64,000 nt of DNA from contig CM035358.1 of assembly GCA_020137815.1 (NCBI GenBank), forward strand, positions 1,860,001 through 1,924,000, given 5' to 3'. Made by a program: the position numbers and the translations under genes. The notes beneath the pieces were generated by a model. It was not told where the DNA came from, ran no database searches, and saw nothing but the letters and a program-made list of their open reading frames with translations. Position 1 is the first letter of the stretch, and every line of letters begins with the position of its first letter. Shown here one piece after another: positions 10,505-64,000 of this stretch. The DNA is from Hormiphora californensis. Lineage: Eukaryota > Animalia > Ctenophora.

Positions 10505-11176
10505 CTACTTTCGACCCTTCTTTCCATTAGCCTGTTCAGCGCTGAGTCTTTGGACCTCGGCAATGGTTCTCTTTACTTCAGCCAACTCCTCATTCTAAAA
10601 GAGAGTTGTATTTGAGGTTAACTTGATTTACCACACTTTGTTTGTCAAAGATGGATAGCCACACACAGAATAATTAAGTGACTTACCACTTTCTTCTTCT
10701 CTTCCTCAAGCTTGTCTCTCTCTTCGTTGGCTGCTTTCCTGAGACCATCATATTTCACCTGCATCTAAAAACGTAATATTATGGTGGTTATAATGGGATC
10801 ATAAAAAGTGCAAAAACACAACAAAAAATATGTACATATAACCAAAATAAAACGAAAAATAACAATTTTGAAAATTATCTCCTCTTTCCCTACCTCATTT
10901 AACTTCTTCTTTACTTCGGCATCTTTTCTGCTAACTTTTTGCAAATAACTACTCCTCATCTCGTTCTCAATTGTCTTCAGATCCTTCAGATGCTCCGCCC
11001 TTTTTTGTTCGTACGTCTCTTGCAGGCTGGAAGGAAATGGTGAGTCTGTGTGTAAGGAGATTGTATATGATGAGAATGACACTAATGTGCCATATGCATA
11101 TGACTCATGAGCTGATTCAGGAAGTTGGTGGAAAACAAAGGGAGACAAGAGTCGGCTTTAATTTTGGAGGTACATG

Positions 11177-11244
<68 letters not shown>

Positions 11245-11270
11245 GAGAGTGAGAGAGAGAGAGTGAGAGA

Positions 11271-11352
<82 letters not shown>

Positions 11353-11363
11353 GAGAGTGAGAG

Positions 11364-11405
<42 letters not shown>

Positions 11406-14400
11406 GCGTGTGAGTGTGTAAGGTTGTGTGTAGGGTTTCGAATGCATATTAGGGTGTGCTAAGTGAAAATTTTGTCGACTTGGCCAATAGTTTAAGGGTA
11501 GATATGAAACTATGGACAATTGTCTACTACATCCTGAAAACGGAATTGGGGTAGTGTATGTCAATTACGTGGGCCAGGCGATTAAAAAAGTTTACTTTTT
11601 TACCGAAAAAAGGAAAATATATGTGTTTTACACCAGTGTTTGGCATGTTCTTGATATCAACTTTTTATGGTCAGGGTCGTGTTCAGCGGTTTGATACCGA
11701 TCAGAATGGATGTGTATCTTGAAGGTTAGCCAAAGTTCATTTTTGACCTGAAAATGTTCATTTTGGACCAAAAATGTTCATTTTTGACTAAAAATGTTCA
11801 TTTTGGTCATTTTCTTCAAATTTGAGAGCTTTTTCATGAACGGGATCGTGTTCAGCAGGTCAAAATTAGTCGGTTACAACCGGAATTTGCTTTCCGACAA
11901 ATAAAATCTCAAAAAGTTAAAATTCGTCTCCACTAATACAGCAAAGTAGGAAAATGTGCAAGAAAAAAAGACGGAAAAAAATAAATTTTTTATTATAAAA
12001 TGGAGTTCTGAAGGTGCAGGCTGGAAATAATGGTTGTACTGGTTCTCATGAGGCGATTCATGTGTGTGGTTTTTTCGAAATAACGCCCCAAAAAACATTT
12101 TTTGATATGAATATGCCCATATATGGGCATACATCGGCCCACGTAATTGGGCCAGGGTAGGACTAAAATTTTTTTACCAAATGTTTTAGAATGATCGTAG
12201 GAACTCATTCTAGGGGTAACTTATGTGAAAATTGGATTTGATTTATGAGTTGGGAAAAATAGCACACCCTAATGCATATCAACACCCTTCATAACCCGAC
12301 CATCCCATATCGAGTTACCAACACTACCGTTCAGTAGGCAGTGCCGCCTTTTCCAACTTATCGAACGATATCGAAATGAAAGGGAATAAGATTGAATGAT
12401 GATCTGAGTACTGCATCATGGTTACCAAGGTTACCAAGGTTACCATGGTCACTAGACAATGGTTACCAAGGTTACCATGGTCACTAGACAATGGTTACCA
12501 TGGTCACTAGACAATGCTACTAAATGTTTCTTACCTAACTGGACCGTGGGCACCATCATCAGCGATGCCCATCTGCTTCAGCTTACCACGTCGGTACATC
12601 TCGTAGTGTCTCTTGTGGGTAACCTGGTGAGGTTGGAGGTGAGGTTGGAGGTTGAGGTAACCTGGTGAGGTTGGAGGGAGTGGTATCTTTAGCGCAACGA
12701 CCTCTTTATTTTGAGAAAATATGATGACCTAGCCTCGTAATAAATCTCCTTAGGCTAGTCTAATTATAGGTACTACATGATACACACACCTAAAATCATA
12801 CTACTTAGCCAGCCATCTTTACCTCGCGAAGATCTTCCATGTTTGTTCGGATCAACATTTCCCGTAGTTTAACAAAGTCACAATGTGCCTCATTCTCTAT
12901 CTCAACAACTCCCCAGGGGTATTCCCGGCCTCGGACAACTCCCTCTCCCACCTTTACGTCCTCACGGGATCCAACAACTGCCGGGGAAGGAAGGGTAATT
13001 TAGGGGGTCGTTGAGAACTTTTCAAAAAAGTTTTTGAGCCTATCTGGTAGCGGGGGAGAATGTTGGTAATGTGGCAATTGTGGCGACACAAGCGAGGAAC
13101 TACATGATAACTTTGCGGGGAAGGGGTTGATAAGTACATCCAGAGTATGAAGGGAACTAAAATTATAACGGTATTGCAGATTTCCTAGTGTTTGTCTGGT
13201 TTGACTGATGAAATATACCACATACCAGCAAATGGCATCATATCATTCATTTCCTTGTTGACCTCTGCCACCGTATCATCATCAGTTGGAAAGGTGTAAA
13301 TCTCAACACCGTTACGTTGCATCTCCTCCATTATCTGATAGGGAGGGAGAGGGGTTAGGTCACCGGACAGAGGGGGGTCTGTGGTAGGGAGGGAGAGAGG
13401 GGTTAGGTCACTGGACAGAGGGGGGTCTGTGGTAGGGCACTTTAGATGTTGTGGATATTGTTAGGTCACTTTGCTACGGTATGAAGTATTGCCAAAGAAA
13501 TGGGGGGGGGGTACATCACTTTCTCAAAGAAGTACAGTTACAACTAATGTACACATTACACTAATGAATTGTACATAATTATATATTTAGTCTGCTGGTG
13601 ATCCTCTGCACTATAATACACACAGATCCATTACATGTGGACCACAAAGAGAACGCACTAGATCTATCCAGTCTTAAATAGTTACAAACTAACAGAAACA
13701 AACCATACAAAGAGGATACAGTATCTATGCAGTACAAACAGACAAATCTCTTACAATCCCTTACGTTAGCTTTAAAGTTGTCCAACTCGGACTTGCTGAT
13801 GGTGTCGCTCTTTGCGATAATTGGAATGATATTGCACTTCTTGTCAAGAGCTTTCATCGTCACAAGATCAAGAGATCGGATTCTGAGATAGGGAAGCATG
13901 GTTAGTTGGGAGGATTCTGGGGGGAGAAAAGTCGGTACTTTGTTGAAATTAAGGGTTTCCGCAGTTTTATTGTATCTCTCTCTCTACCCTCCCCTCTTTT
14001 CATCTCCCTCCCTCCCACCCCTCTTTTTGTCATACACCTCCTTTCAACACTACGATTGTGGATTCCTCACTCGTAGTGTTGAAACACTGTGGAAACTACT
14101 AGATGTACAGCTAGGCAAGTGTGTAATTAGTGAGCGAGATTTATTGTGTCCGTGTGTGTACAAAGCAGTGAGGGCATCTCCCGCACTCACACTAATACAC
14201 ACAAGTATTATATGACGTGTAACGAACCATGATCTCTCTACCTGATATCTCCTCTCTCTCTATCCTGACTTGTGGATCACTTCTACTGATACAGAACCCC
14301 ATACCTTATTTGGTGTAAGATTAATACCCCATAGTCCATACCATATATGGTCATATACTATGTATCTCACTTACGAGTGTCCAGTAGGAACGAGGAAGTA

Positions 14401-20704: not shown

Positions 20705-21240
20705 TATAGTGTTTTTTGGATTCTTTGAGCTGCCGTGCCTTCTCCAGCAGCGCCAAAAGGGTTGCTCTCTTCTCAAGAGATACCAAGAGCGGCCTAGGGC
20801 GTTCTTCGTTCCTCTCACCGATACGTTTCATGTTATCAATTTTCGATTTTTCGTTCAATTCTTCAAATAGCTCATCCAGATTGGTTCTCTCAGCATTCTC
20901 AGTTGTTTCTGGGAGCCCAAATATTACCAAGTTCTTCTCTCAATTTTCCTGGGGTACTACTGTAGCAGGAGGAGGCTTAGAAGTTGGTGGCTTAGGAGGA
21001 GTTGGTAGCTTTTTCGCCACAGGGGAGGCTGCAGCATAATTTTGAGCTAGGACTGTCGAGTAGGCTTTCACCTTCTGCACTGACGTTTCCACTGCGCTCA
21101 GTTGACATAATGTCAAGAATCTTCTGTTGTGAAACAACGGAGCGGCTCTGCGTGGTTAATTGGAATCTTTTTACAGCATCTAACGTCGAGTTTACACGCT
21201 TTACTTCAATTCAAGAGACGTCCGGTGTTTTCAAAGGAAC
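20705..21240 (-). mobile_element. Decayed LINE ORF1 fragment related to the ORF at 50179-51141, interrupted by the MITE
   Basis: NLVIFGLPE...FEELNEK...RIGERNEERPRPLLVSL...LLEKARQLK parallels NLMVFGLPE...FAELGEK...RPVIVKL...LLQKAKQLK; contains an in-frame stop. Confidence 0.75.
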
Positions 21241-36359: not shown

Positions 36360-45851
<9,492 letters not shown>

Positions 45852-46558: not shown

Positions 46559-48712
46559 TCACGTACAACATTTGTTCTCTCTTACTGGGGGCGGGGCACT
46601 GAAGGAGAGATATATTGGGAGAGATATAGGGTAGAGAGAAAGAGGGGAGAGAAAGTAATATAGAGGAAGAAAGTAAGAGAATGATTGACTAACCTGATTG
46701 GTGTAGCTTGAATCTCTGGAGCTGGCGTTGGTTGTTTGTTTGCTAAGTAACGCTTGTAGATTTCCCTCGTCAAGTTTTCAAAAACCTGTGAAATTGACAA
46801 TCAGTAATAGAATCATAATCAGAATAAGGGTTAGACGACTGTGTGGGCTTCCAGCTTCCTGAAAAACCAGGAGCAAAACATTTTGAATACCAGGTCCATG
46901 CCGCGCGACGGTACGTGCGGGAAGCGCGCGAACTTGAGTATTTGTGTGGTCTGGCGCGTTCCAGACATGATCTCCTAACAAATGTGTCATTGGCAAAATC
47001 ATGGAAGAGAGGGGGAATCACACCCTCTCAAAAAGTTTCCATTTTATTACACACATCTCTGATATACATCATAGCACTTAGTCTGGAGATTTTAAATGTA
47101 TCTCAGTTTTTAAATGATTCAAGTGGGCAGATATACAACAACTGCTTACAATTAGTAATTCTCAGAATCGAGAAACTCTTCCCTTACCTTATCAACATTT
47201 TCACCACACTTTGCACTTGTCTCAAGGAACTCAATACCATAGTTAGCCGCTAATTCAGCACCTTTCTCGTGTGATACCACCCTTTTAAACTGCTTATCAG
47301 ACTTGTTGCCGACCTGAAAATGTGTGATCAATTTTAGTTCTGTTTGTGATATAATACGGCGATTTGATTGTACAAAAAAAACAGGCTACATAACAAGAAG
47401 AACAACCTCAGTCAGTATAAACTATAGAGCTGTAAATAAATATTAGGACTTTCGGAGTGGTCGCCCAAAGTTTAATACTCAGTACTATACGAACAATAAC
47501 GCAGTTGGACAGTTGTTAACCAAACTTACCAAATATATCACGACATCATTTGGTGCACTTTTCCTAACATTATCCACCCACCCAGAGATTCTCTCAAAAG
47601 TTCTCAGCTGAGTTATATCGTATACAAGAACAAGACCTGTAGCATCCCGGAAATACCAACTTGCCATGGAGTGAAACCTGAAAATATGTATGGGATTCTT
47701 TTTATCTACTGTAATGAGTAATCTATGTATCATTCCTTCTCTTTTGCTCGCTATTTCCTCCCTTTCTTCTCTTTTCTTTCTTTCTCTCACTCTCGTTCTC
47801 ACTTCCCAGGCACTCAGCTTATATTGGCGTTGATACAATGTGTGTGGGATACAGTGTGTGGGTGATGACAGACGGGTGGGAAGAAAATCAAATAAAAGAA
47901 GAGAGATACGCTTGGACTGTAGGTGTGTCTTTGGAAGAGTAATAAAATGGGATAGAGAGAGAAAGTATACGCTGCACATGTGTGTATGATAGGCCATATC
48001 TAGTGATAATGAAATCAGTCGACTCTAAAACAATCCCAGTAATCTATTCAGTAATTAACACAAGTTAATAATAATTAAGGTTAACATTCAAGTTTGGTGA
48101 CGCAGCCACCCCTAAGTACACTAGCTGCGCGCAGTGCGGCTAAACGAAGCCCGCGAAGCAGGCTGAGTGTATTATAAAATAATAGGGGATGTCATCACCA
48201 ACATTCAAGTCACCTTTCCTGTCCAGCAGTATCCCAAATTTGAAGCCGAATTGTTTTGTCGTCAATATTAATATTCCTGAAAGAGAAATTCTCGTTACAA
48301 GAAAAAAAAGAAGAGAGACCGGTCATGGATGGTGGTCCCCCTTTGTCTCTCCTATTTAGCCGCGATTCAAAGAGCGTACTCCGAATAAGTCGTAATTTGA
48401 ACTACAATCATGGAGTCATGAAAATTTGACGACAAGAAATTCTAGGACGCTATGAATCTCTCTAATTCCCTACGTACGAAATGGCATTTCTACATTGATT
48501 AGGTACTGATTAAAAAACTACGAGACAGTCTAAATAATAAGTTATGGATAAAATTAAACTTACCTGCATTTGAAATCTATTCCAACAGTACTTAGCAGAC
48601 TATCACTGAAAGTACTCTCTACATACTGAAGCAACAAACTCGTCTTACCAACTCCACTCTCCCCAACTGTCAATATCTTAAACGATAGATCAAACTTCTC
48701 GTCTGCTCTCAT
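46559..48712 (-). CDS. Rab family GTPase (Rab8/10/26/37-like clade), 6 exons
   Basis: [43 protein letters not shown] and a C-terminal ...NKCCT* prenylation motif. Confidence 0.9.
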
Positions 48713-49250: not shown

Positions 49251-50178
49251 TAAAGAATATTTAACATTTTTTCGTGGACTGGTTTTTGGAGCTTCTAGCG
49301 AAAGTGATGCTTTCTTGTTTCTTGACCAATTTCGTCAAACAAAAACTTTACGGACTCACAAAAATATGCTCTTTCCGATGATATGTGGCTTTTTGCCGAA
49401 AAGTGAGAGCAAGTGGGGACTGTCGCGGCTCGTGCGCAAATACGACGCCGTGCGTGAAAAGGGGGGTGACAACTTCAATAATCCGTTAGGGTCTGGTTAG
49501 GGTTTGGTTTCGACTTTCGGGTTTTCGGTAAGGGGCGGGCTATTGATTTATCGTTAGTTTATCAATTTCTTAAAATCTTAAAGCAGAATTTCGAAGCATC
49601 CAACACTCAATATTAGGTATCGCTTGTGCTTTCAAAACTTCGCAAACTTCAGTACTTTTAACTTTCTAATTTTGTTTTGTCTTATGGTTTTGTCTTTTGA
49701 TTGACACCATTTAAAGCTACGTTTTCTGCTGGCCCAGTGCTGGGTTTGAATCCTTATTTTGCCATTATCTTGCTTTCAAATGTTTTGGCAATAAAAGCTA
49801 TGTGTGTCCAAGAGTCAAATTGAAATAGCCACCTTTTGTCCCTCTTTTATCGCACTGTTAGGGTATTTGACCCTTGAACACAGCTTTTAGGGCAAAAGCA
49901 TCTGAAAGCAAGATAATTGCAAAAGAAGGATTCGTTTTCAGCAGAAAATGCAGCCTCAAAAGACTTCCATCAAGACTTGAAAAGTGTCAAGAACAGTTGG
50001 AAAAAGTTGTAAAGTAAAATTTGGAGAAGTTTGCAAAGTTTAGAAAACACGCGAGACCTGATTATTATTATTATTATTAAATCTATATAATTTACACAAT
50101 TTAATTGTATAAATAAGCCCCTTTTTTGTGGGCAAATACGGGTTACCGATAGATATTAAAGTTCATTGAAGATACCCA

Positions 50179-51141
50179 TTATGAAAAGTCTATCACCCCC
50201 CTCCGTACCCGGAATTGGCCTCCAGGATTCGAGTCCCTCAACTCCTTCAACGTTTGGTGGAGTTCTCTCCTCTCACTTCTCTCTGCGAAGGACATATCCC
50301 TTGCAAGATATACACCGCAGTACGATTCTAACTGTTTTAGCTGCTTTGCCTTCTGGAGAAGGCTTAGCAGCATTTCCCTACTCTGTAGCTTCACAATCAC
50401 TGGTCTCTCCCTTCCTCCCCGTTTCAAACCCACCCTTCTAGCTTCTATGGTCGGTTTCTCGCCTAGCTCAGCAAAAACATTTTCCACTTCACCCTTTAAC
50501 ACAGATTCAGTTTCATCCTCACATTCCGGTAGACCAAACACCATCAGATTTTTCGATCTGTCTGGGCCGGTATCAACTGGCTTGTGCGTGACCTTTTCCA
50601 CGGCTTTCTGGATCTTTTTCGATGCAAACGCAGTCTTACAATTCTGTGTGACGACTGCAGAGAAAGTACGCAAATCTTTCTGTACCGTCTCGGTAACTCG
50701 ATTCAGTTGCTCGCCCTGAAGCTCAATAACCTGCTCTTGTAACTTGACAGTTCTTCTCAAAAGATCATCACACTCCACTTTCAACTTCTCCTCCTGCTCC
50801 TGCAACTCGAGAGATTTTCTCAACAGTTCATCTCGCTCCTCTTTGAGTTCATCTCGCTCCTCTTTGAGTACCATCTCAGGGGATTTCTCGGCAAAGATAT
50901 GACGCTCAAAGTGTTTTAGAACAATAAACGTTGCAAAGCTCATTTCTTCAATCAGTTGCTTTAGCTCATATTTCGTGTGTACAGAGTTGATTTTAACTGA
51001 TGACGGTATTTCAGCATCGTTGAAATCTGGACTGCTCCTGCACTTTTTTAAGACATTGCCAGCGACAGAGCTCTCTCCACTTTTGGCCAGCGTCAGAATC
51101 CGTCTTACAGCAAAGTCCAATTCTCGTTGTTCGTCTGCCAT
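50179..51141 (-). CDS. LINE (CR1/L2-group-like) ORF1 protein, 320 aa: coiled coil plus RRM-like/C-terminal domain
   Basis: Heptad EERDELK repeats, then RSKNLMVFGLPE, RVG...RPVIVKL and GVYLARDMSFAERSERREL, typical of LINE ORF1p. Confidence 0.8.
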   Translation of the reverse strand: MADEQRELDFAVRRILTLAKSGESSVAGNVLKKCRSSPDFNDAEIPSSVKINSVHTKYELKQLIEEMSFATFIVLKHFERHIFAEKSPEMVLKEERDELKEERDELLRKSLELQEQEEKLKVECDDLLRRTVKLQEQVIELQGEQLNRVTETVQKDLRTFSAVVTQNCKTAFASKKIQKAVEKVTHKPVDTGPDRSKNLMVFGLPECEDETESVLKGEVENVFAELGEKPTIEARRVGLKRGGRERPVIVKLQSREMLLSLLQKAKQLKQLESYCGVYLARDMSFAERSERRELHQTLKELRDSNPGGQFRVRRGVIDFS

Positions 51142-51190
51142 TATCTTACGTTCTGCCCTTTGGGGCCGTTACATCGCCATGTTGCTGAAA

Positions 51191-51223
51191 CTCAAATTAA
51201 TTTGTTTAAAGTAGTGCTGAAAA
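51191..51223 (-). other. Spliced-leader-like sequence TTTTCAGCACTACTTTAAACAAATTAATTTGAG
   Basis: 32/33 identical to 56385-56417. Resembles the ctenophore SL exon 3' end from memory. Not followed by GT, so it is not an SL RNA gene. Confidence 0.75.
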
Positions 51224-52678
51224 AAATCTGTAGGTATTGAGATGCTTTTTGGGGTGGCGCGCGGCAGGGCTATTGTTGGTTGGGTTTGCCTTTAATTCAA
51301 AGTTTATCTGGTAGGAAATGTCAAGGCCTAACCCCAACCCAAACCCCAGCCCTAACCCTAACCCCACTTTAGCCCTAACCCTAAAAAACCGTTTGTCAGC
51401 ACTCACGAAACACCCAGATTTTAACGCTGGCCGTCATTTGGGGGTGACAACTTCAAAAAATCCGACTAGGAGGCAAGACACTGTGTTGAGACGCGCACCA
51501 TTGCGACGCGCATTTTGGCTTTGCGACGCGCATTTTGGCATTGCGACGCGCACATGAGATAGAGACTTGAAATTTGGAGGTTACGAAGATCTTGCTAAGT
51601 TCTTCCGAACCTCCAAATTTCAAGTCTCTATCTTATCAGGAACCGGAGATATGACAAATTTTGTTATTTCAGGGGGGTGACAGTTTCAAAAAATCCGACT
51701 TTAACACGCTTCGCCGAACGGATTTTCTATAAGGAAACGTGCACGGCTTTGTGGTTTCTGTCACAGTTAGCGCCGCACACAGATTTGAGAAATAAGCGTC
51801 CTGACATCATATTTCATCAAAACAGTTATTTGATTTGATGAAGGAGCGCACTCGAGCGTTGTCAGGCGTTGTCCGTGACGGACGGACATTTAGTTAACCC
51901 CCACGATCTGCTGATTTCTAAACCCTGAATGATCTTTTTAGCACGTGCGTGCTAAAAAGATCATCCCGGGTGGATGCCCTTCGGGCATCCACCCGGGCAG
52001 GGAAAAAATCGTGTCATTTTTATTTTTTTCTTCTTTCATTTGAAAAGTGCTGCCTTATCGGGGGCCAGCAGCCTGCAGCGTTTGCCAATTCTTTCACTGG
52101 AATGGGGCAAATGATCGAACCCAATGTGAATGAGACTCATCGCGATTAACTCTTCATACGGTTACCCCCTTTCGCTCCTCAGCAGCTTCTCCTTGGCTGC
52201 TTAAAAGTGATGCCAATCGGTGTTGGGGTTGTTTTATTTCACTGGAGAAGTGGTTCCTGGACCCACTGGAGTCTGGACCCTGAATTTCTTCATCCATATG
52301 AGGTCTAGGACCCTCTTTTCCGGAGAAAGAAGCGAGAAAAATGGAAACTAGCTAAAAAAGGGAAAATGACACGATCCGATTTTTGATTGAGATTGCCGAC
52401 AATAAAAAGTTTAGAACTTTTAATAATTAATTTATGGGTTCGGAGCTAGTGCAAGCGATCTTGTTACATGAGGAACCTCGAAAATGTTCAGGTCTACACC
52501 GCGTGATCTGTTCTAACCAATCACAGATTACAGAACAGCTCTTGCGTTCACACGTGACACTCTCGCCATACGAGCTGTTCTGAGCAAACCTGAATATTAT
52601 TTTTACCTATGCTGATCTTGATAGCCGATAGATATTCATCCAAGCACTAACCCTGTTTAGGAAAACGATGTAGTTACA

Positions 52679-55600
52679 ATGGCGGGAAAACGGTTCAGGG
52701 TTTCCTGGAAAGGAAGGCCTGGTGAAAGCAAGATGATCCAGGCAATAGAGTTGGTAAATGATGACTTTGAGCAGCTTCTTGGGCAGCTGAAAGAGAAAAT
52801 TCGGAAAAAGTACAAAATAGATAATGAACGGGAGTTCTCACTCAGCTACCAACCAGAAAGCACAATCCATCAATCCATCAACCTAACAGACATAGATGAC
52901 GAAGATGACATGATGGATGTGTGGAAAGGGGATGTTGAACAAAGGATTTTTATAAAATTCATAGAGGACCCTTTTTTACAAAGTGGAAGGTCATCCGTGC
53001 TGAGTAATCCAAGTTGGAGTGGTACTGATGTAACTGGGAGGAGTAGCCCCTTCCAGCCAATAGAACATCCTTTTCCAGGAGGCAGTAGTTTCTCTCCCGT
53101 TATACCAACTAACAAGGTGATTCCGGAAATACCGGTAACAACACAACACCCAGTACAAGTTCCTACACCTCAGCTAGCCGGTGCTCACCCAGTACAACCT
53201 AGTTATAATCTCCACGGAGTTCCTACACCTCAGCCAGATCACGCAGTACAACCTAGCTATGATCATCTCCACGGAGTTCCCCAGCCAGATCGCCCAGAAC
53301 AAGGTGGTGATGTGAGCATGGTATGCGAGGAGGATGCAGCCCATCTTTCTGACATTGAAGTTATACCTGATACTGACGTACCTGGCGATGAAATACCTGG
53401 CGATGAACTAACTGAGGCAGCCGGTAACTCATATTTGATCAAGTCCTTTTTTCCTACTTTTTCCCAGACTTGCAGGAAAAGGGGGTGTGAACACTTGAAA
53501 AAAATTGACTTTGCATTTTTAGGAACTACAAACCCGACCACTGACGAATTGTTATCAAATTTTCAGGGGAAACTGAAATGGATGCCACTGATTATGTTAC
53601 TGATGCTGTTACTGATGCTGTTACTGATTCTGTTACTGGTTCTGTTACTGGTTCTGTTACTGGTTCTGTTACTGGTACTGTTACTGGTTCTGTTACTGGT
53701 TCTGTTACTGGTACTGTTACTGGTACTGTTACTGATTTGGTGAGTAACAAAGAACCAGTGACTGATGATATGGAGCCTAATGCAGCGACAGAAGAACTAG
53801 AGGAAGAAAAGAAGCGTGATCCGGACTCACTGAATGATGGCTTGGATGACTGCGAGACACGTGTGGATATTGTTGATGATGAAGGTGACCAATTCCATGG
53901 TAAGAATGTTTCCTGAGCATCAGTTAGCCATGTTGTTCCAAATATGATGCAAATAAATCCATTGGAAAGAAATAATTACGGCGTTGCACCTTCCGCTGAC
54001 GTCCCCCAGAGATATCGCAGCTAAGTGGTCATGATTTGATTTGAAAAAGGATAAAAATCGATATACAATATATAAAGACAATATCCCGGTTGGCTCCTAT
54101 TGACGGAGTGTCAATATAGACGGAGCGCTTACACCTCAAAATACTATAAAAATTCACACACAGACAGTTCTCGCACACTACGGACAAACAGACTAATATA
54201 GTATACTTTTAATAGCTAAATAAAAATAGAAATAGCTATAAGGCTATTCACATTAGACTAGTTGGTTAATTTTAATTCACTCATTAATGATAAAAATAAT
54301 TACTTACCCTTGCCCATTGTTCCTAGTCCCCCACCCCTCCCCCATGATCCCCATCCAAAATTTAGTATACCGTCGGCTGTTGGTAGAGATTTATATCAGA
54401 TAGAATTCATATCTGTGGTGGGGGCGCCCGTCCTGTTTCAAACTGTTCAACACCACTCCAAACCTCATATTTGAGTACAATGTAAAGAATGAGCTATGTG
54501 TGGAGGTGGGAGAGATACCGCAGAAATAAAGGAAGAGAAAGGGACCCCCCACCACAGAGGCGAATTAAGTTGTGTCATGTAAGGCGTTCCAGAGATGGTC
54601 TTTCAGTTTGGAGGAAAATAAATTGTGTTCGGTTGTATTTCTCAGTTCTTGAGGCAGTAAATTCCACTCAAGGTGGCAGCGGTAGAAGTAACAGTTTTTG
54701 AACAGGTCCACTCTGGGTTGTTCAATGCATATAATGTTCGTTCTGTCTCGTTTCGTTTGTTGTCTGGTGGTGCGTCTGAAATGTGATTCCGGATCGTATT
54801 TTTGTAGGAAAGATGGAAATTTTATAGGAGATGTTTCATAGAATATTTTATGGAACAACTTAAGATCATTATATTGAAATTTTTGAGTCATTGGGAGTAC
54901 GTCAATCTCCCTGAGTTTCTTTACATACGTTTCTAAATTATAACTAGTGTCTGTTTCACCTAATATCCATTTTGTGGCACGTTTCTGCAAACTTTCAAAC
55001 TTAAGCAGACTTGAATCACTTACTGGTCGCCATATTTGGCTACAGTGTTCGAACAGGGATCTAACTAGACTAATGTAGAGGTTCTTCTTCTTTAGGGGGC
55101 ATTTAACTAATACTCCTACACGCTTCACCAGTCCTAATCTTTGAGAAGCTTTGGAAACAAACGATTTCAGTTGTCTTCCCAAACATGTTTCTAATTTCCC
55201 TAACGAGGTCTACATACGCATTATAAATATCATTCTTACCACTATGAGACCTAACAAATTTAGCCCACCTCCTAATGTCGTTCGTACCGAAAGCCACTAT
55301 AACTTTTCTCACTTCCAATTCAGGTTGGCTCTCTCTAAAGCCTTTCAACATGTCTATTGCAAGACTTCCCTCCCAATCTCTGAATGGCTTGCATAGCCTC
55401 GCACCCGATACCGACACATTTATCAGATCCAGGTCCTCGTTCACCCACTTCGTCATGGAAGTTCCCAGGAGTAGAGTCCTTGGAGAATTTGGTGCCGATT
55501 GTGGAGCGGCGGTAGAAAATCCAGAGACATCTGGCTGGTATCCATCAACCATAGGGGGTACAGGCGAAAATGTCATCTGAGACACCACAGGGGACACCAC

Positions 55601-58553
55601 AGGGGATACCATAGGCTGAGGAACCACCGACTGAGCTAGTGGTGGTGGTGTAGGAGCGATAGGTGATGTAATAAGCCTCTTCCGGAATGAGAGGGCATAC
55701 CTAACCCCTTGCTCAACCTTGTTGGCCCGATGCTTGAAGTGCTCCTGGCACCCTTTCATCATGGTGTAAGCCTCTCCGTCTTTCAGATTGATGGACAGTG
55801 ACGGTCTCATCCTTCCGTCCCCAAGGTAGGGGATGAAGTCCACTGTCCCTGGCGACCCGAGATTAACGACTGTTATAGAGGAAGAGTCGTCCAATGTGTC
55901 CTCAAAATCAGAGTGGTAGTGCACCCCTTCTCCTCTCCTATACCTGGTTACCAGACACGAGTTGTATCCGCAGCCCAACTCACTGTTCAATTTCCCCATT
56001 AATCCCATGATGTTGGGGTACTTGGCTATATCCACAGGAGGCAGTTGAACTTTACCCCATCCATACCCGAGTCCTGTGTTTGACAACCAGGTATTTTTTT
56101 GGTCAAAGTCTTCGACCTCCCAATGTAACGATTCTGAGTCAACTTCAGGGACTCCCCTCCCATGAAACGTAACATACTTGCTGGGATCCTTTTTCGGAAC
56201 CCCAAACTTCTTTCTTCTCTCCAACTCCTGTTGCGCCAGTAGTATGATTCTCTCCAACACAGGGGACGACACACGAGTAAAGATTTGGTCGAGGGGAGTG
56301 TTGTCTAGGTCCATATTTGAGGTATCCTAGCAGCCCATCCTAAAATCCATGCTAAAACAGGCTGATTAACCCAAGGACATTGTCCTCAAATTAATTTGTT
56401 TAAAGTAGTGCCGAAAATAGATGCACTATCTGGGACGTCATGTACTCCCAAAGTGTGTCAGAACTGTCACCGAGAAACATTTCTGGCAGTACGTCTCGGG
56501 CGGTTCATCTATTATAATCACCCAGCTGGGACATCTCTGGAGGAGTGAGAACGTCCCCGGAAGATCTCCCGGAGGTGCGAGAGAGGCCGTAATTACCAAT
56601 TATATGCAATGCACTTTTGGTAAATGTACTTAGCTGATACTATTATTTATATGCTGACATATATGATGAGGTTTTGGCTAACGTTTAAACCTGTTTTCAG
56701 ACGCAGAATTATCCTTCTCTGATAATGAAAAAGAGACCGACAGTGAAAAAGAGACCGATGGTAAATTCCTTGATGACATTGATGAGGATATTAGTGGACA
56801 GGCGGAGGAAATCGGCGAAGGTATGAAGAAGAAAATCACGGTAGCATTTTAGGATGGGGCATTGCCACCACAGAATAATATAATTCGAATGGCTCATTTC
56901 CCCAAAACAATACACATCCTCAATAGATAGTTTTACGTAACATACTGTTTTAATGATTACATAAGTGCACTGCAAAATGGTAGATATTGAATTTTATCAA
57001 ATGTTATTACTGGGTTTCTGGTTTGTTTAACAGTATTTATTACAGTTGCAAGTCCAGATAAAATGCATGTCGTGGAGGTAAAAGAAATACCAAGAGAAGA
57101 GCCCAACCTGGATGAATGGTAAGCACTTAAAATAATTCCGGATTAGAATCTGGTTTGTCTACATGTCTTCATTGCATTACTAGTACTAGTAAACCCGTTC
57201 GCCCTACGGGCGAATTTCGCGGAAATGGTAGCTGGATTAGGAAACACTGACATCACCAGTCGAACTGTTGACATGCACTATCCCTACGGCAACGTAAAAG
57301 GAGCTCAGGCGGGATCGCTGCGAGTTTTAGAACTTCAGAAGATGATCAGGCGATCAAAATGATAAAAAAACTTGCAGATTCCTCGCATTTCGTCAGATTG
57401 TGGTCATCTGCCTTAATCTTTGAGATTGATCATCGGTTCTGTTAATCTCCAACGTCTTGTTCGTTCTCTCTGCACTTCTCTTGGTGTTGCTGCATTTTAA
57501 CTCCTCAGTGTATGGAAAAGTAGAGAACGGCGGTCGGATCTTGCATGAGTAACTCCAATTGTCGCTGTCGTATATCAGCAGTAGTTGAAGAAGGCATATA
57601 ATTAGCTGGAACAGTGACGCAATACAAAGCAAAATCAGATGCACGTGCAACTGCAGTACAATAGCAACAATCCTTGGTAACGGCTCCCACCCACTCCAGA
57701 TGTAGTAATCCACCTCTAAACCTGCACGTGCAAAATGCCATATTTGGTAAAAAACGTCACACAGGATTTCCCTATTTGCTTTAACTAGAAAGCCCATTGA
57801 AGTCCTACAACAGCTCCCCCCACCCGTCTCAACCCCTCACTCTTTGTCTCTCCATGTCGGGGTAAAGAATACGGAGGTTAGTACTTGTAAAGCGCTGGTG
57901 ATAAACATCAAGGGAAATCCCGCTGAATAACATGTAGAATCAGGTGATAAAGATCCGTAGAATTGTAGTAGCTGTGTAGAGAATCAATGGGGTACGTAGG
58001 TAGAAAAGCTTTTGCAATCATGGCGGCCCCAGCAGTAGATCACAAAACACCACAGGAAAACCACAGGAACACGAAACAAACAACCAACAACATGCACGTG
58101 CAGTATCCCCCCTCCAATACCCCTCCCAGGGCACCTCCTTGGCAACCCCCTCTATTTGCACGTGCTAGGATAGGTCATCATACTCCTCACCACGCCACGC
58201 ATTTGCATCTTTTAATTAAGACTAGAGAGCCCAGGCAAAAAACCCAAAACTCCTCTCGCCCCCTACTGAATCCTCCCACCCCTTTCGAATCCTCTCAATA
58301 TCTATTGACTGCTCTCGTCCCATATTATTCAGCACCCTCCCTCCCCCGCCCCCGGGCTATGTTGACCAACTCACCCCATAATCCCCTTACAGCCAGTTGG
58401 AGTCCTACAACAACCCCCCTCCCCCCCCCCCCCGGTCTCTATGTCTCTCTCTCCCCCTCTCCGTCTCCGTCTCTTTCCCTGTCCCCTCTCCAATGGATAG
58501 TCTTCATCTATCCCCTTCTCTCTTTATCCCTCTAACCCCATCATTCCCTCCCC

Positions 58554-58584
<31 letters not shown>

Positions 58585-61500
58585 TCTATCTCTCTCTCTC
58601 CCTCTCTCTCCCTCTTTCTCTCTCTCTCTCTCTCTCCCCCTCATATCGGGCTGGTGAATATAATGGAAGCTGGAATCAGGTGATAAAGATCCGTAGAACT
58701 GGAGCTGTGTAGAGTTATTAAAGCTGGGATACGTTGGTAGAAAAGCTGTGGCATTCATCGGGGCCGCAGCAGTAGATGGCCAAGCACCACAAAACACGAC
58801 AGGAACACGCAATAAAACACCCAACAACATGCACGTGCAGTATTAAACTCTTGCCCACCATCATGGCAACTCCCCAAACCCCCCACCAAACACCCCTAAC
58901 AACACGTCAATTTTCCACGTGCAAGCCCCAAAAAACCCCCTCCCCCAAATTTTGTCTTGCAAGCATCTCTGCTTTATAATATAGACTAGAGAGCCCAGGC
59001 AAAAGAACAAAAAACTCTCACACCCTATTGACTCCTCTCAATCCCCTACTTTGCTCCCTAGTCCCTACGGCGCCGCTTCGCGGCACCTCCGGTCGCGAGA
59101 TCATAATCCACGCCCCCTTCCCCCTGTTGACTCCCCTCAGTCCTCACCCCAGACCCCTCTTATCCCTATTGACTCCCCTCGGCCCCTATTGAATCATATC
59201 GTCTCCTATTCACTCCATATCACTCTCTGTTCACTCCCCTATAACGCCATAACAACATTTTCCTAACCCCTCTCTAAATCTGTGATCTGAAGCAGTTCAG
59301 AACCCCACATTTTCCCTCATTTTTCACTATTTCCCCCATTACTCAGTCATTTCTCAACCAATTTCGAAAATCTTGGGCTCATTAAAAAGATAATCTCAAG
59401 CTCTTTCCAGAGAGCTATTATCCCCCAAGATTAGAAAACCTTTACACACGCACGTGCACTCCCCAAACCCCCCACCAACCATCCCTAACAACACGTCAAT
59501 TTTGCACGTGCGAGCCCTAAAAACCCCTCCTCTCCCAAATTTTGTCTTGCAAGCATCTCTGCTTTATAATATAGATAGTATGATAATATATTTTTAGGGT
59601 GGACGTTATCAGACGTGGAATACAGCAAAAGATGACTCCAGTCACCTTTGTCGTGTTTGCCAAAGTGAATGATGATGTTTGTATTGATTTTGGACATGGA
59701 CCAGTGTATCTACCAAAGCTAAAGGGTAGATTGAACAGTGGAGTCTCCATTTACAGCCGAACTTTTACATTGGCAGTTTCACATCCTCTAGTTTACCGCT
59801 TTTTCATCTTTAACAAGTTTCTATCTGACCAAAGCGAGATTATAAAAACATCTGGTCACAAAACAACAGATAGAAGAAGCCTCGTGGTTCCAGAAGGTAG
59901 GTCTGTGCTGTCAATTCACAAGTGTGCTAAATAAATACGCATTGACCACTTACACTCACCAGTAAATAGTAATTTGAGTAACTTACCAGGTCAAAGTTTG
60001 CTACTACACAAATGTGTATTTGAATACTCATTGACCAAGCCTGATCCCTGCAAACTGTACATGGCATTGTTGCTCTACCTTTCTGAATCAAAACACCTTG
60101 TTTGGAGTGTAGACCAGTTCTTGAAACATAACTTTCCTACCAACGATGAGGATTTGCGGTCTCTCCTTGAGGTAATTTAGCATATAGTATGTGGTATTTG
60201 ACAATTTGATAAACACGTTTGATGTTGGATATTATCAATTATCATATTTTAGTTATAATGAATTTTTCTTTACAGGCCATCGTCGAGTTTCAATTTAAGA
60301 AAAATGATCTAGTATCGCATAATCTATTGACGGTACTACTCCTAATCATGCACAAACTTAAGTGTAAGCCGGAGTTTTTACGAGATACCGCAAAGATGTT
60401 ACTGTCCCTACTGGATCGCAGAGCACCAAAACAGGAAGAGAGGTAATTTTTTCCATGCTTGAGGTTTCCAGATTACGTTTTACCGGCACCTGGCTAAATC
60501 AAAATAGAAATTCGAAACAACCGTGGCCAAACGCCAAAGAAACCGAGATTAACATAGCAATTTGTAACTAAATTATCCCAGCTCAGTTTCTCCCTCCAGA
60601 CAAATTTTAAATTACTTTCAGCTTCGAACGAATACTCCATGCTTCGTACAATCTGGTTGAGATGCACAACCAAAAGTGTCGTGATTTTTTTGTACTCTAC
60701 TGTGGTTTGTGTGCGAAGTACGAAATTCCTCCCAAACAACTCAGCATTTTTGTGTAAGTGGGTTAAAAATCATTGTAACACACTTGTATGTGTCTATTAG
60801 GTCTGCTAATCCATATTTATTTTGAAAATTTAGAACAAACAATTCAATGGAAATCTACGAAAAAGATTTCTTTTTACTGGTACCGACATTACAACGGGAG
60901 GCATTGCGTTATGTCAGCCTGAGAACTCTTGTTAATTACTGCCAAGACTTCACTTCGAACACATCTGCTGCATCGTGGCTTCTCGATATAATGAGGAACA
61001 TGACAAAAGATCAAATTTTAAAGGTACATAGTATGTTTCACGGTGTATTAGAAAGTATGATGTTTCGCATCCAATTGGTCAATTGCCTAGCTAGACTGTG
61101 TTTTGTGCAACGTGCGCCCTGCCCGCGAAACACAAATGTAAAGGAGGGTTAGAACATAACAAGTGGTCAACTGGTCACGCTTCTCTTCAGGATAAGGGCG
61201 ATCAAGTTTACGTAGACACCATTTTCAACATTGCATCAAGGTTGCTTGTTAACTCTTATACTCCTGGGTAAGTTAGATCTCTCCCTAGTTAAAGTAACAA
61301 ACTCTCCCTCTCTCCCTAGTTAAAGTAACAAACTCTCCCTATCTCCCTAGTTAAAGTAACAAACTCTCCCTATCTCCCTAGTTAAAGTAACAAACTTTCC
61401 CTTTCTTTATACTCCTGGGTAAGTCATCCCGCCAAATTAAAGAAAGTTATATTACTACCTATTTCTGCCTCAACAGGGAGTCGCAAAGAGACCCTATGCT

Positions 61501-64000
61501 AACGCATCGAGACATCTTCACCTTATCTACTATTCTGGAAAGTTTGGAACCCGATGGATTTTTTGAGAGAACCACCAACTTTTTCACTCAATTAGCCCAA
61601 AAAAGTGCTGTGGTGAAGGATTTTCTAAGGTGTATGGTTACACTGTTCTTCATGGAGTCTGCCATTTGTTCCATGCATTTACATGGAATCGATCTACATG
61701 GAATATACCATTTTGATGTGAGTTAAACAGAAGTTCTATCTACATTCTACATGCACAGTGCGGGATAAATGATAATGTAGCGCTTTTCAAGGCATGGTAT
61801 TATATAGGTAATATAGCTAACTAGAGAGCCCAGGCAAAGACCAACAACTCCTCTCACCCCCTATTGACTCTTCTCAACACCTCCCACCCCTCCCAAACGG
61901 AGCAAATTGTTGCACGCTAGTGTTGCACGCTAGTGTTGCACGCTTCTTAGACGACGCGACATCTCCAAATTATAATAGAGATCCTTTTAGAGTTTTCATT
62001 CTTCCTTCCGCAACATTGTGTGTTACAACTATTCTCCCCTTCGTGATCTAGTTGGAAGATTGGTCGTTTATCTACCAAGCTGTGGAAGATCGGTTGCCAG
62101 CCAATTGTAGTGGTCGACATCATATCCTAGTGTGGACGTTGAATTTCATCAAAGACTACCTCTTCAAACTGGATGTTAGTTGTTACTCGCTAACTTTTAC
62201 CATTACAACACTACTCAACCAATTAAATTACAACCAGTAGGCAGCAATAATTCTAATATGCCACTTTTCCAGGATTCACAAAAGAGAGATCTGCTGCGTC
62301 GATTTGAAGATGAAGACACCCTCAATTCAACAGTATATGACGAGGCCATTACTCTCCTACAACATTTCATCCTACAGTTGCTGCAAAAGCCATGGAAAGA
62401 GCTAGTGGTAATTATTAATTAATGAATTGGTGGTCCTATTTAACTGATAAACATACGACACAATGAATATAACGCTTCAGATTGAGCTAACTAGTGTACG
62501 GGGCCTTGTAAAGGCAACTAACAAGTTACTACATATCAAGTTCCCAAGTGAAGTTACTGCTGAAAGAGTTCTCTGTAATCCGAAATTCCCCTGGGCCACC
62601 ATTTTGCAGTCCAAAGGTACCAAGACCTGAAGTGTACAACTACCCAACGTTTAAAAAGTTCCCTATACTACAAGATTGCACTAAAAATTATACCTTCTTT
62701 TTGTTTAAAGTGATAGTTTCCATATGAAGCTTCACACTTCTACTTTCTTTCCTAGATCTAGCTGGACTTGCTAAAATCAAGGAGGGAAGAGAAGCAGTTA
62801 ACAAGTTCTACGAGGAAGTCGAGACAGGCTCGATATTATTTGGAAGTGTCCAACGGTTCCTTGATCCCCACAAGGTGTCCTGGGAACTGTTGTCCCTCTT
62901 CGACAAAGAACCTACGGAGATGATAAACATCCAGAAGTCCAGGGAGTTCAGCCAAGTTCTGTCCGGGGCCCTGAATGTCTTTAGAGAGATCCGATGGACT
63001 TCTCTCTTCCCTGGTTCAGAGGGTGCCTTCAAGCAATTCACCCTAGATCTGCTGTGGAGAAATGATGTTGAGAAGTTGCAACTGAAAACAATGTCAACAG
63101 GACCACTGAGAGGGCTGTCAGAGGATCACTTGAACCTTCTTACATTACTTGGCCCCTTGTATACTAGTACCCTCTTTCTAGACAGGTTGGAGAAGCAGGA
63201 GAATCCTGCCAACATTACAACAACGATACAAGTGTTTACAGAGGTAATGAGGGAGAGAGGGGGAGAGAGGGGGGGGGGGCAAACAATCTCAGACCCACTT
63301 GTGCCGGGGGTGCTTAGCTACACAATAGATCCGAAATATTTTCGGAATATTATCTAACAGCGCTATGTATCCTGACTGTATCCCAACTCCTAACTGTATC
63401 CCAACTCCTAACTGTATCCCAACTCCTAACTGTATTCCAACTCCTAACTGTATCCCAACTCCTAACTGTATCCCAACTCCTAACTGTATCCCAACTCCTA
63501 ACTGTATCCCAACTCCTAACTGTATTCCAACTCCTAACTGTATCCCAACTCCTAACTGTATCACAACTCCTATACCTGTATCCCAACTCCTAACTGTATC
63601 CCAACTCCTAACTGTATCCCAACTCCTAACTGTATCCCAACTCCTAACTGTATCTCAACTCCTAACTGTATTCCAACTCCTACCTGTATCCCAACTCCCA
63701 GGTGCTCATGCCTGTAAGAGATGGCCTAAAGACGCTGGTAAACAGTTTCATCGACGAAGAGATCACCCAGAATGAGCTCTTGGCACTTCGGGCAAGTTTG
63801 AATTACGAGTCCGACGAAGCATTTAGTGAGGACCTTGCTCGCTGCTGTGCTCTTTTATCACCTGAGAAGAATCTCCGTGACAGCACGAGAAAGAAGGTCG
63901 GGATTGTCTGTGGGGATCTGGGGACGGCGCTATCCGCCATAAACCGATTACGGGAAACCCTACAACTGACTGAACGATGGCGGGAACTGGAGAAAATCGA
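52679..64000 (+). CDS. Large multi-exon protein, 5' part: PB1-like N-terminus, Pro-rich and acidic linker with VTGS repeats, then beta-rich and helical regions (possibly RNF213-like; unverified)
   Basis: GT-AG exons at about 52679-53422, 53567-53899, 56701-56840, 57045-57118, 59598-59897, 59990-60171, 60275-60442, 60833-61023, 61191-61267, 61476-61630, 62273-62407, 62481-62616, 62756-63243 and 63702 to the end. FSLSY...DIDDEDD resembles the PB1 acidic motif. Confidence 0.6.
53594..53737 (+). repeat. 12-bp coding tandem repeat (gttactggttct; VTGS/VTDA)
   Basis: About 12 copies within the exon at 53567-53899. Confidence 0.85.
54565..55160 (-). pseudogene. C-terminal remnant of a CR1/L2-type ORF2 (post-RT region)
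   Basis: KASQRLGLVKR, LYISLVRSLFEHCSQIWRP, ESLQKRATKWI and WNLLPQELR; no endonuclease or RT core. Confidence 0.85.
55103..56314 (-). CDS. LINE ORF1-like protein: AlkB-family 2OG-Fe(II) dioxygenase plus truncated SGNH esterase
   Basis: YNSCLVTRY, HSD (HxD), QEHFKH and RYALSFR (RxxxxxR); then LLLGTS, SVSGA and AFGTND (SGNH blocks I-III, block V missing). Confidence 0.8.
   Translation of the reverse strand: MDLDNTPLDQIFTRVSSPVLERIILLAQQELERRKKFGVPKKDPSKYVTFHGRGVPEVDSESLHWEVEDFDQKNTWLSNTGLGYGWGKVQLPPVDIAKYPNIMGLMGKLNSELGCGYNSCLVTRYRRGEGVHYHSDFEDTLDDSSSITVVNLGSPGTVDFIPYLGDGRMRPSLSINLKDGEAYTMMKGCQEHFKHRANKVEQGVRYALSFRKRLITSPIAPTPPPLAQSVVPQPMVSPVVSPVVSQMTFSPVPPMVDGYQPDVSGFSTAAPQSAPNSPRTLLLGTSMTKWVNEDLDLINVSVSGARLCKPFRDWEGSLAIDMLKGFRESQPELEVRKVIVAFGTNDIRRWAKFVRSHSGKNDIYNAYVDLVREIRNMFGKTTEIVCFQSFSKIRTGEACRSIS
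56385..56417 (-). other. Spliced-leader-like sequence TTTTCGGCACTACTTTAAACAAATTAATTTGAG
   Basis: Lies at the 5' boundary of the insertion, 70 nt upstream of the ORF1 ATG. Confidence 0.75.
57186..59575 (-). mobile_element. Cluster of Helitron-like fragments in an intron
   Basis: CTAG plus hairpin end at 57186; repeated actagagagcccaggcaaa ends (~58221, 58985 and also 61820); tgcacgtgca motifs; internal duplications. Confidence 0.5.
63368..63700 (+). repeat. 18-bp tandem repeat (~18 copies) running up to a 3' splice site
   Basis: ctaactgtatcccaactc repeated, ending in ...ctcccag|gtgc. Each unit contains a branch-point-like CTAAC. Confidence 0.9.

What the first reader, a model, noticed from the sequence alone, without database searches (positions are those of the whole stretch)
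50061..56417. Two unrelated LINE retrocopies both start with a spliced-leader sequence: SL trans-spliced retrotransposons
Seen: the inserts at 50061-51226 and 54036-56417 have unrelated ORFs and different tails ((TAA)n versus TCAAA). Both begin on the minus strand with TTTTC(A/G)GCACTACTTTAAACAAATTAATTTGAG (32/33 identical), exactly at their 5' boundary and 49 or 70 nt before an ORF1 ATG. Identity stops right after ...TTTGAG, as expected for a splice junction. Recalled knowledge: ctenophore mRNAs carry a trans-spliced leader ending ...CACTACTTTAAACAAATTAATTTGAG. Inference: these LINE RNAs were SL trans-spliced and reverse transcribed almost to the cap. Elements could then ride host read-through transcription and use trans-splicing to get a defined capped 5' end, rather than an internal promoter or ribozyme.
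Basis: partly seen in the sequence, partly recalled or inferred. Interest (0 to 1): 0.92.

Follow-up and report, generated by a model that had tools for sequence, protein, structure and literature searches.

The report
Comb-jelly LINEs headed by spliced leader
Two incomplete jumping-gene (LINE) copies in a comb-jelly genome begin with the short leader that these animals splice onto their messenger RNAs, as do relatives from three distinct LINE lineages, so these elements were likely copied from leader-spliced RNA and likely use the host's leader in place of a promoter of their own.

Summary
Observation confirmed. The 33-mer occurs twice, heading two unrelated non-LTR inserts: B, an ORF1-only element whose model best matches L1 ORF1p, and A, an internally deleted LINE (AlkB+SGNH ORF1 fused to the end of an APE-RT ORF2). 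It is the ctenophore spliced leader: 32/33 and 31/33 to the published Hormiphora leader, it heads unrelated host ORFs, and its 5S-linked SL RNA gene was found. Empty alleles in two runs lack it, so it lies inside insertion A. In two genomic-looking assemblies 10 of 11 leader loci are LINE 5' ends, 1 is the SL gene, 0 are host retrogenes; 8 of 11 flanked LINE loci keep at least 40 of about 43 leader bases without change. Copying from trans-spliced RNA is well supported (about 0.9). That leader-headed copies are the propagating, promoter-less form is inferred (about 0.55). The basic idea is in print in passing for flatworms (PMC12582326), Hydra TE transcripts carry leaders (PMC12220107), and this scan noted the same before in dinoflagellate, Perkinsus and Euglena DNA.

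The parts
51191..51223 (-). Last 33 nt of the host spliced leader at the 5' end of element B (one difference from the published Hormiphora leader)
51142..51190 (-). B 5' UTR: TTTCAG directly behind the leader, a 3-codon uORF (51169-51180) and a 4-bp hairpin (51155-51166); motif shared with L007, L049, L057, L086, L091
50179..51141 (-). B ORF1, 320 aa, intact; predicted coiled coil + RRM + CTD like L1 ORF1p
   Evidence: 11 of 11 matches at E<=0.001 are L1 ORF1p
50061..50178 (-). B 3' UTR and (TAA)6 tail; no ORF2 (half-LINE layout)
56385..56417 (-). Last 31-33 nt of the host spliced leader at the 5' end of element A (two differences from the published leader; 56416-56417 shared with the target site)
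56315..56384 (-). A 5' UTR with short upstream ORFs
55160..56314 (-). A ORF1: AlkB-type 2OG-Fe(II) oxygenase + SGNH hydrolase, cut at about residue 379 of 460 by an internal deletion (frame runs on to a stop at 55103)
54565..55167 (-). Last 200 aa of an APE-RT ORF2 (94.5% to residues 935-1134 of P0042)
54033..54564 (-). A 3' UTR and (TCAAA)2 tail; 3' edge set by the empty allele
52661..57120 (+). Plus-strand multi-exon gene of unknown kind, interrupted by A in antisense orientation (extent approximate, read from sequence)
47185..48712 (-). Rab-like host gene starting about 1.35 kb downstream of B, same strand (context only)

Best explanation
Both inserts are LINE-derived copies that carry the host's spliced leader as their first bases, and they were likely reverse transcribed from RNAs that had received the leader by trans-splicing; leader-headed copies are likely the form in which these LINE lineages propagate. 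Shown: leader identity, its position inside insertion A, its fixed junction with family-specific 5' UTRs in three lineages, near-complete retention in relatives. Inferred (about 0.9): trans-splicing, then target-primed reverse transcription running to or near the cap, with 5' attachment by microhomology (here at the leader's T run). Inferred (about 0.55): a leader-headed copy is transcribed by read-through from host DNA and re-spliced at the AG that ends its own DNA leader, which would replace the worn leader with a fresh capped one at the same junction and leave no stacked relic, so no element promoter would be needed. A and B themselves are non-autonomous passengers (A deleted, B ORF1-only) that need an ORF2 protein in trans.
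For: Leader identity: 32/33 and 31/33 to the published leader; in run X18 (RNA by guess) two leader-holding bins have depth 2116 and 1608 while 26 of 30 bins have none, and loose ends lead into unrelated sequences and into the missing 5' part of the leader; 83 of 85 loci from mRNA-like assemblies have the leader at a contig end with no LINE hit; L062 is an SL RNA gene with GTAAG donor in a 778-bp 5S rRNA repeat. Inside the insertion: X5 joint 54007->56416 and X4 record 21 give the empty allele. Generality: 10 of 11 leader loci in two genomic-looking assemblies are LINE 5' ends (9 by protein hit, L086 by UTR motif only), 0 host retrogenes; three lineages whose ORF2s share 23-27% where alignable at length. 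Renewal: the 17-18 leader bases not fixed by my search pattern match the SL gene without a break for 14 or more bases in 8 of 11 flanked LINE loci, while the next 60 nt differ by 3-39% between relatives; the junction is held at the same base in L016, L028, L088 and L095, although L016 and L028 ORF1s are only 59% alike; A and B share a G leader variant while B's relative L091 (53% ORF1 identity, same UTR) has the A variant, so the leader follows the host rather than the element; X1 contigs run unbroken across the leader/UTR junction for B (50821-51211, 0 differences) and A (55427-56410); 0 of 97 leader matches have a stacked second leader.
Against: The leader ends in GAG, a poor acceptor by the general YAG rule (recalled), and B, L049, L057, L091 carry a better TTTYAG right behind it that is kept rather than spliced away. 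My locus sample was fetched by the leader, so masters without it could not appear; contigs drop rare variants, so an unbroken contig does not exclude a single outron-bearing master. A is antisense in a host exon and B lies outside any gene I could identify on its strand. No transcript of A or B was shown. No empty allele was seen for B among the 15 joints listed (33 more not shown). The host-tracking argument rests on three copies. DNA or RNA origin of the assemblies was judged from content only. No whole genome was held.
Confidence: 0.55

Rival explanations
1. Dead-end by-products: each family has masters with their own promoter and an outron ending in AG; most of their RNA is trans-spliced, so most full-length daughters are leader-headed but inert, and the lineage continues through rare unspliced RNA. 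The leader is still acquired by trans-splicing.
For: Fits every shown fact on leader identity, fixed junction and fresh leader sequence; needs no GAG acceptor; C. elegans Cer1 makes both SL1-spliced and unspliced RNAs (PMC3315495, passages); both window copies are defective.
Against: No branch at the junction in X1 contigs, including the low-depth A subfamily (depth 155 against about 70-100 for neighbouring low-copy contigs), and a second A-like variant also aligns into the leader (insertion behind 56381). Three lineages would each have to keep an outron that most cycles remove.
Confidence: 0.3
2. Captured leader as inherited part: the leader was gained once per lineage and is transcribed as part of the element, working as an internal promoter, without new trans-splicing.
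For: Proposed for dinoflagellate retrogenes (PMC5585692, passages); nematode SL DNA as internal promoter is recalled, not confirmed; would explain why TTTYAG behind the leader is kept.
Against: Copies lose 0-15 nt at the 5' end and could not restore them; the leader is invariant while the adjacent UTR diverges; the leader variant follows the host in A, B and L091.
Confidence: 0.1
3. Target site: the elements insert into SL RNA genes or dispersed leader copies, like NeSL, CRE, SLACS and CZAR.
For: SL-specific non-LTR elements exist (PMC4640811, passages); L044 and L060 have GT behind the leader.
Against: The empty allele of A has no leader; upstream flanks are all different and unlike the SL gene; no SL intron follows the tails; relatives encode APE, not a restriction-like endonuclease.
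Confidence: 0.02
4. Chimera by template switch or RNA ligation between LINE RNA and SL RNA during reverse transcription, like U6-L1 chimeras (recalled).
For: SL RNA is abundant and such chimeras put a small RNA at the 5' end.
Against: The joint is exactly at the splice donor, with no GTAAG intron part, and at a fixed UTR base in each family.
Confidence: 0.03

Closest known systems
Partial leader loci beside LTR and LINE elements in parasitic flatworms (PMC12582326; section 6 read)
   Same: 597 discarded leader loci were tied to mobile elements, and the authors suggest integration of trans-spliced retrotransposon RNA: the same first step.
   Different: A filtering remark: partial leaders within 500 bp of repeats; in the section read there is no junction, empty-site or family analysis and no life-cycle proposal.
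SL-bearing TE transcripts in Hydra (PMC12220107; passages)
   Same: About 30% of TE Iso-Seq reads carry a leader, so TEs use host trans-splicing in an animal.
   Different: RNA-level only in the passages seen; no genomic copies headed by the leader.
Dinoflagellate SL-relict retrogenes (PMC5585692; passages)
   Same: DNA-encoded leader marks a reverse-transcribed, trans-spliced RNA; re-splicing at an AG within the leader is discussed.
   Different: Host genes with stacked, decaying relics; here the tagged loci are the LINEs themselves, leaders are single and unchanged, and 0 of 11 genomic-looking loci are host retrogenes.
SL-gene-specific non-LTR elements NeSL, CRE, SLACS, CZAR (PMC4640811; passages; details recalled)
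   Same: Leader DNA adjoins a non-LTR retrotransposon.
   Different: There the leader is the target and the endonuclease is restriction-like; here it is cargo, flanks are diverse and the endonuclease is APE.
HAL1 (half-L1) elements (PMC5753468; passages)
   Same: B is a non-autonomous element encoding only an ORF1p of L1-like fold.
   Different: B ends in (TAA)n, its partner LINE is unknown, and no L1-clade ancestry was tested.
CR1-group LINEs with esterase ORF1 (recalled)
   Same: A has SGNH ORF1, APE-RT ORF2 relatives, a short-repeat tail and no clear target duplication.
   Different: A's ORF1 also carries an AlkB-type dioxygenase; clade assignment rests on recalled motifs, no reference tree.

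Membership tests
Ctenophore spliced leader | Sequence match to a published ctenophore leader | tested here: met
   32/33 and 31/33 to the Hormiphora leader quoted in PMC8527503, compared by eye
Ctenophore spliced leader | Sits at the 5' end of many unrelated mRNAs | tested here: met
   83 of 85 loci from mRNA-like assemblies; loose ends in X18
Ctenophore spliced leader | Encoded by an SL RNA gene with GT donor and structured intron part | tested here: met
   L062: GTAAG, fold z -3.71, 5S-linked 778-bp repeat; from another sample, with the A variant; Sm site not identified with certainty
APE-type LINE (element A) | ORF1 plus ORF2 with APE and RT domains | tested here: met
   For the family: ORF2 remnant 95% to P0042 (PF03372 + PF00078); this copy has lost most of ORF2
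APE-type LINE (element A) | Discrete insertion with 3' simple-repeat tail and an empty allele | tested here: met
CR1 or L2 clade | RT phylogeny with reference elements | not tested
   No named references fetched; motif resemblance is recalled
ORF1-only non-autonomous LINE (HAL1-like; element B) | LINE ORF1p fold, no ORF2, tail directly after ORF1 | tested here: met
   L049 has the same layout; dN 0.31, dS 1.07 on 75 codons against L091
ORF1-only non-autonomous LINE (HAL1-like; element B) | Empty allele or target duplication; shared 3' end with an autonomous partner | tested here: inconclusive
   Possible 3-bp CAG duplication by eye; no joint listed; partner not found
SL-gene-specific retrotransposons (NeSL/CRE) | Leader present in the empty target | tested here: not met
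   Empty allele of A lacks it
SL-gene-specific retrotransposons (NeSL/CRE) | Restriction-like endonuclease | tested here: not met
   APE families in relatives
Dinoflagellate-type SL-relict retrogenes | Host gene retrocopies with stacked or decayed leaders | tested here: not met
   0 of 11 genomic-looking loci are host retrogenes; 0 of 97 matches have a second leader
Promoter-less, trans-splicing-dependent LINE | Leader-headed copies are transcribed and receive a new leader | not testable with these tools
   Needs long-read or nascent RNA and a genome
Promoter-less, trans-splicing-dependent LINE | No master with promoter and outron | tested here: inconclusive
   Unbroken contigs across both junctions in X1; contigs show presence, not absence

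The most novel reading that the evidence does not exclude
Several unrelated ctenophore LINE lineages have given up their own promoters: a copy's DNA leader acts as its own trans-splice acceptor, so each round of host read-through regenerates a capped, exactly defined 5' end. Most of the hundreds of dispersed leader copies counted in Hormiphora (718) and Mnemiopsis (491) are then 5' ends of full-length LINEs, and each insertion plants a ready-made trans-splicing site that could seed nested intronic genes.
Probability: 0.45. Interest if true: 0.86.

Novelty: new variant of a known kind. Interest (0 to 1): 0.68.

Why it matters
How a LINE keeps a working 5' end through reverse transcription is solved by internal promoters or ribozymes in the known cases (recalled). 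Use of the host's trans-spliced leader would be a further solution, reached by at least three lineages in one animal group. It also gives a directly testable origin for the 718 and 491 genomic leader copies that PMC8527503 counted in two ctenophores without classifying them in the passages read, provides a 26-nt tag for full-length LINE insertions, and may bear on the many parallel nested genes of these genomes.

Tried and rejected
No whole genome was held, so no genome-wide classification. Viral contigs had 0 matches. The records behind five short loci could not be searched further, so L086 rests on its UTR motif. Pfam and PDB sequence searches did not identify B ORF1; only the fold search did. 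Whole 5' ends of B, L091 and L049 fold no better than shuffles (z 0.82, 1.32, 0.73; A -1.91): no sign of a 5' ribozyme-like structure, only a 4-bp hairpin. Run X18 has no cover over B's body and only depth 4.69 in one bin of A: this says nothing on expression. No stacked leaders. Assembly artefact rejected: leader-LINE junctions occur in contigs of independent runs and in other assemblies. Target-site and template-switch models rejected as above. Derelle 2010 and Moroz 2014 were not held; the Hormiphora supplements could not be read and may bear on how the 718 leader loci were classed. The sequence look-up in earlier findings and one word look-up gave nothing.
Full report
OBSERVATION. The 33-mer lies at 51191-51223 and 56385-56417 on the minus strand, 32/33 identical, and identity ends after ...TTTGAG. 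Its 27-nt core has 2 matches in 64 kb with up to 3 mismatches; none of 100 shuffles reached 2. No genome was held. Close protein relatives include Pleurobrachia bachei gene models (89% to A ORF1; accessions naming the species), so the window is from a pleurobrachiid comb jelly (inference).

THE MOTIF IS THE SPLICED LEADER. PMC8527503 (passages) gives a 44-nt Hormiphora leader, found on 56% of Iso-Seq reads and 718 times in the genome (491 in Mnemiopsis); B matches its last 33 nt at 32 and A at 31 positions. In run X18 (RNA by guess) the two leader-holding bins have depth 2116 and 1608, 26 of 30 bins have none, and loose ends lead to unrelated sequences on the 3' side and to the missing 5' part of the leader on the other. 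A scan of metagenome contigs with the 26-nt core gave 97 stretches, held as 96 loci with 97 matches. 85 loci come from assemblies that look like mRNA (leader at a contig end before an ORF such as Rho, G-alpha, 14-3-3; names read from the translations by recall); 2 of 85 hit LINE proteins (L007, L057). L062 is the SL RNA gene: leader + GTAAG, folding z -3.71, alternating with 5S rRNA in a 778-bp repeat. The leader begins about 43-44 nt before the donor.

ELEMENT A (54033-56417, minus). ORF1 has an AlkB-type dioxygenase (PF13532, E 1.4e-10) and an SGNH hydrolase (below cut-off here, above it in the intact relative P0014). It matches P0014 for 379 of 460 residues, then joins residue 935 of a 1134-aa APE-RT protein (P0042, 94.5%): an internal deletion of roughly 3 kb (estimate). 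Two runs give the empty allele: X5 joint 54007->56416 with 30 letters between, and X4 record 21. Against the window the insert runs from 54033 to 56415-56417, with a 2-nt T microhomology and no or at most a 3-bp duplication. The leader is therefore part of the insertion, and the insertion is polymorphic. A lies antisense within an exon of a plus-strand multi-exon gene.

ELEMENT B (50061-51223, minus, plus up to 4 ambiguous bases). One intact 320-aa ORF, about 100 nt of 3' UTR and (TAA)6. Sequence searches did not name it, but the model (pLDDT 73) has L1 ORF1p in all 11 matches at E<=0.001. 13 relatives at 30-100% identity lie mostly on contigs of 1-1.8 kb, L049 has the same ORF1-then-tail layout, and dN 0.31 against dS 1.07 on 75 codons suggests selection. 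B is a half-LINE in the sense of HAL1 (PMC5753468, passages). No empty allele was among the 15 joints listed (33 not shown).

GENERALITY. Two assemblies look genomic (leader with foreign flank upstream; judged from content). Of their 11 loci, 10 are LINE 5' ends (L016, L025, L028, L044, L060, L088, L095; L049, L091; L086 by UTR motif only), 1 is the SL gene, 0 are host retrogenes. L025, L028 and L044 have ORF1 and APE-RT ORF2; L016, L057 and L060 have ORF1 and the start of APE. Tandem SL genes collapse in assemblies, so this counts loci, not copies. Three lineages are involved: the A family, the B-like group, and the L025 group, whose ORF2 is 23-27% identical to A-family ORF2s over long alignments. 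Leader retained in the 11 flanked LINE loci: 28, 35, 38, 40, 41, 41, 41, 42, 42, 42, 43 nt, so 8 of 11 come within about 3 nt of the cap (L028, L044 and L086 have only 1-6 nt of flank). The window copies stop at the leader's T run, where A shows microhomology with its target, which may explain their identical start.

MECHANISM. The joint is exactly at the donor site, without SL intron, and at a fixed UTR base per family: the signature of trans-splicing, followed by reverse transcription (inferred, about 0.9). Four observations favour leader-headed copies as the propagating form with a renewed leader. (1) Leader bases not fixed by my pattern match the SL gene without a break while the next 60 nt differ by 3-39% among relatives (short global alignments inflate identity). 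(2) The junction is kept across members whose ORF1s are 59% alike. (3) A and B share a G variant, while B's relative L091 has the A variant. (4) X1 contigs cross both junctions unbroken. An outron is removed from every spliced RNA, so a lineage that passes through such RNA needs an acceptor in the daughter; the leader's own terminal AG would supply one and leave no stacked relic (0 of 97). Against this: GAG is a poor acceptor (recalled); a stronger TTTYAG behind the leader in B, L049, L057 and L091 is kept; the sample could not show leader-less masters; no transcript of A or B was shown; neither window copy can be a master. L057 (351 nt of flank starting with GTAAG, in an mRNA-like assembly) and L007 (leader at the contig end) are weak hints of read-through and of expression. 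I put this step at about 0.55, masters with an outron at 0.3, an inherited promoter-like leader at 0.1.

WHAT IS KNOWN. PMC12582326 (passages and section 6) discards 597 flatworm loci with partial leaders near LTR and LINE elements and suggests integration of trans-spliced retrotransposon RNA. PMC12220107 (passages) finds leaders on about 30% of Hydra TE reads. PMC3315495 (passages): Cer1 makes SL1-spliced and unspliced RNA. PMC5585692 (passages): SL-relict retrogenes in dinoflagellates. PMC4640811 (passages): SL-targeting NeSL. PMC7986045, PMC3795323 and PMC4558846 (passages) added nothing on this point. The listings of searches showed no paper on leader-headed LINEs in ctenophores; the library lacks most subscription journals, Derelle 2010 and Moroz 2014 were not held and the Hormiphora supplements could not be read. 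Earlier notes of this scan report the same pattern in dinoflagellates, Perkinsus and Euglena; they are unchecked and were seen after my reading was recorded.

VERDICT. Real, and broader than the two copies: leader-headed LINEs are the main non-gene source of dispersed leader loci in the ctenophore DNA sampled. New variant of a known kind; interest 0.68; the promoter-less self-renewing cycle (probability 0.45) would deserve 0.86.

Noticed in passing
window 55700-56100 (-); P0014-P0020: LINE ORF1 with an AlkB-type dioxygenase ahead of an SGNH hydrolase, metal-binding HxD...H motif (recalled) visible in the five relatives read. No paper held all four terms non-LTR retrotransposon, ORF1, esterase, AlkB. 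May demethylate or repair element RNA (guess).
   Followed up: partly
P0042: The first 38 residues equal A's ORF1 start and run in frame into an APE-RT ORF2: a deletion derivative or a spliced ORF2 message.
   Followed up: no
window 51155-51190 (-); L007, L049, L057, L086, L091: Conserved 5' UTR motif in the B-like group: short uORF or stop, then a GCCC...GGGC hairpin shortly before the ORF1 ATG; it links ORF1-only elements with L057, which has an ORF2.
   Followed up: partly
L062:263-381, 692-835, 1041-1159: Ctenophore SL RNA gene alternating with 5S rRNA in a 778-bp repeat.
   Followed up: partly
window 20712-21104 (-): Fragment of an L007-like ORF1 element (76% nt over 229 bases) with no leader upstream, cut by another repeat at about 20705.
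   Followed up: partly
L016, L025, L028, L088, L095; window 56337-56352 (-): A TTTTAG acceptor-like site directly before an ATG in the 5' UTR, a possible second trans-splice acceptor.
   Followed up: no
window 51293-52200: Very high-depth composite repeat with TTAGGG-like units and short inverted repeats next to B.
   Followed up: no
window 52661-64000 (+): Long multi-exon gene with low-complexity acidic repeats and no Pfam hit in the two ORFs scanned; possibly part of a large DNA transposon.
   Followed up: no
window 10768-13983 (-), 36363-37178 (-), 47185-48712 (-): Exons resembling a septin, an RNA polymerase second-largest subunit (both by recall from translations) and a Rab GTPase.
   Followed up: no
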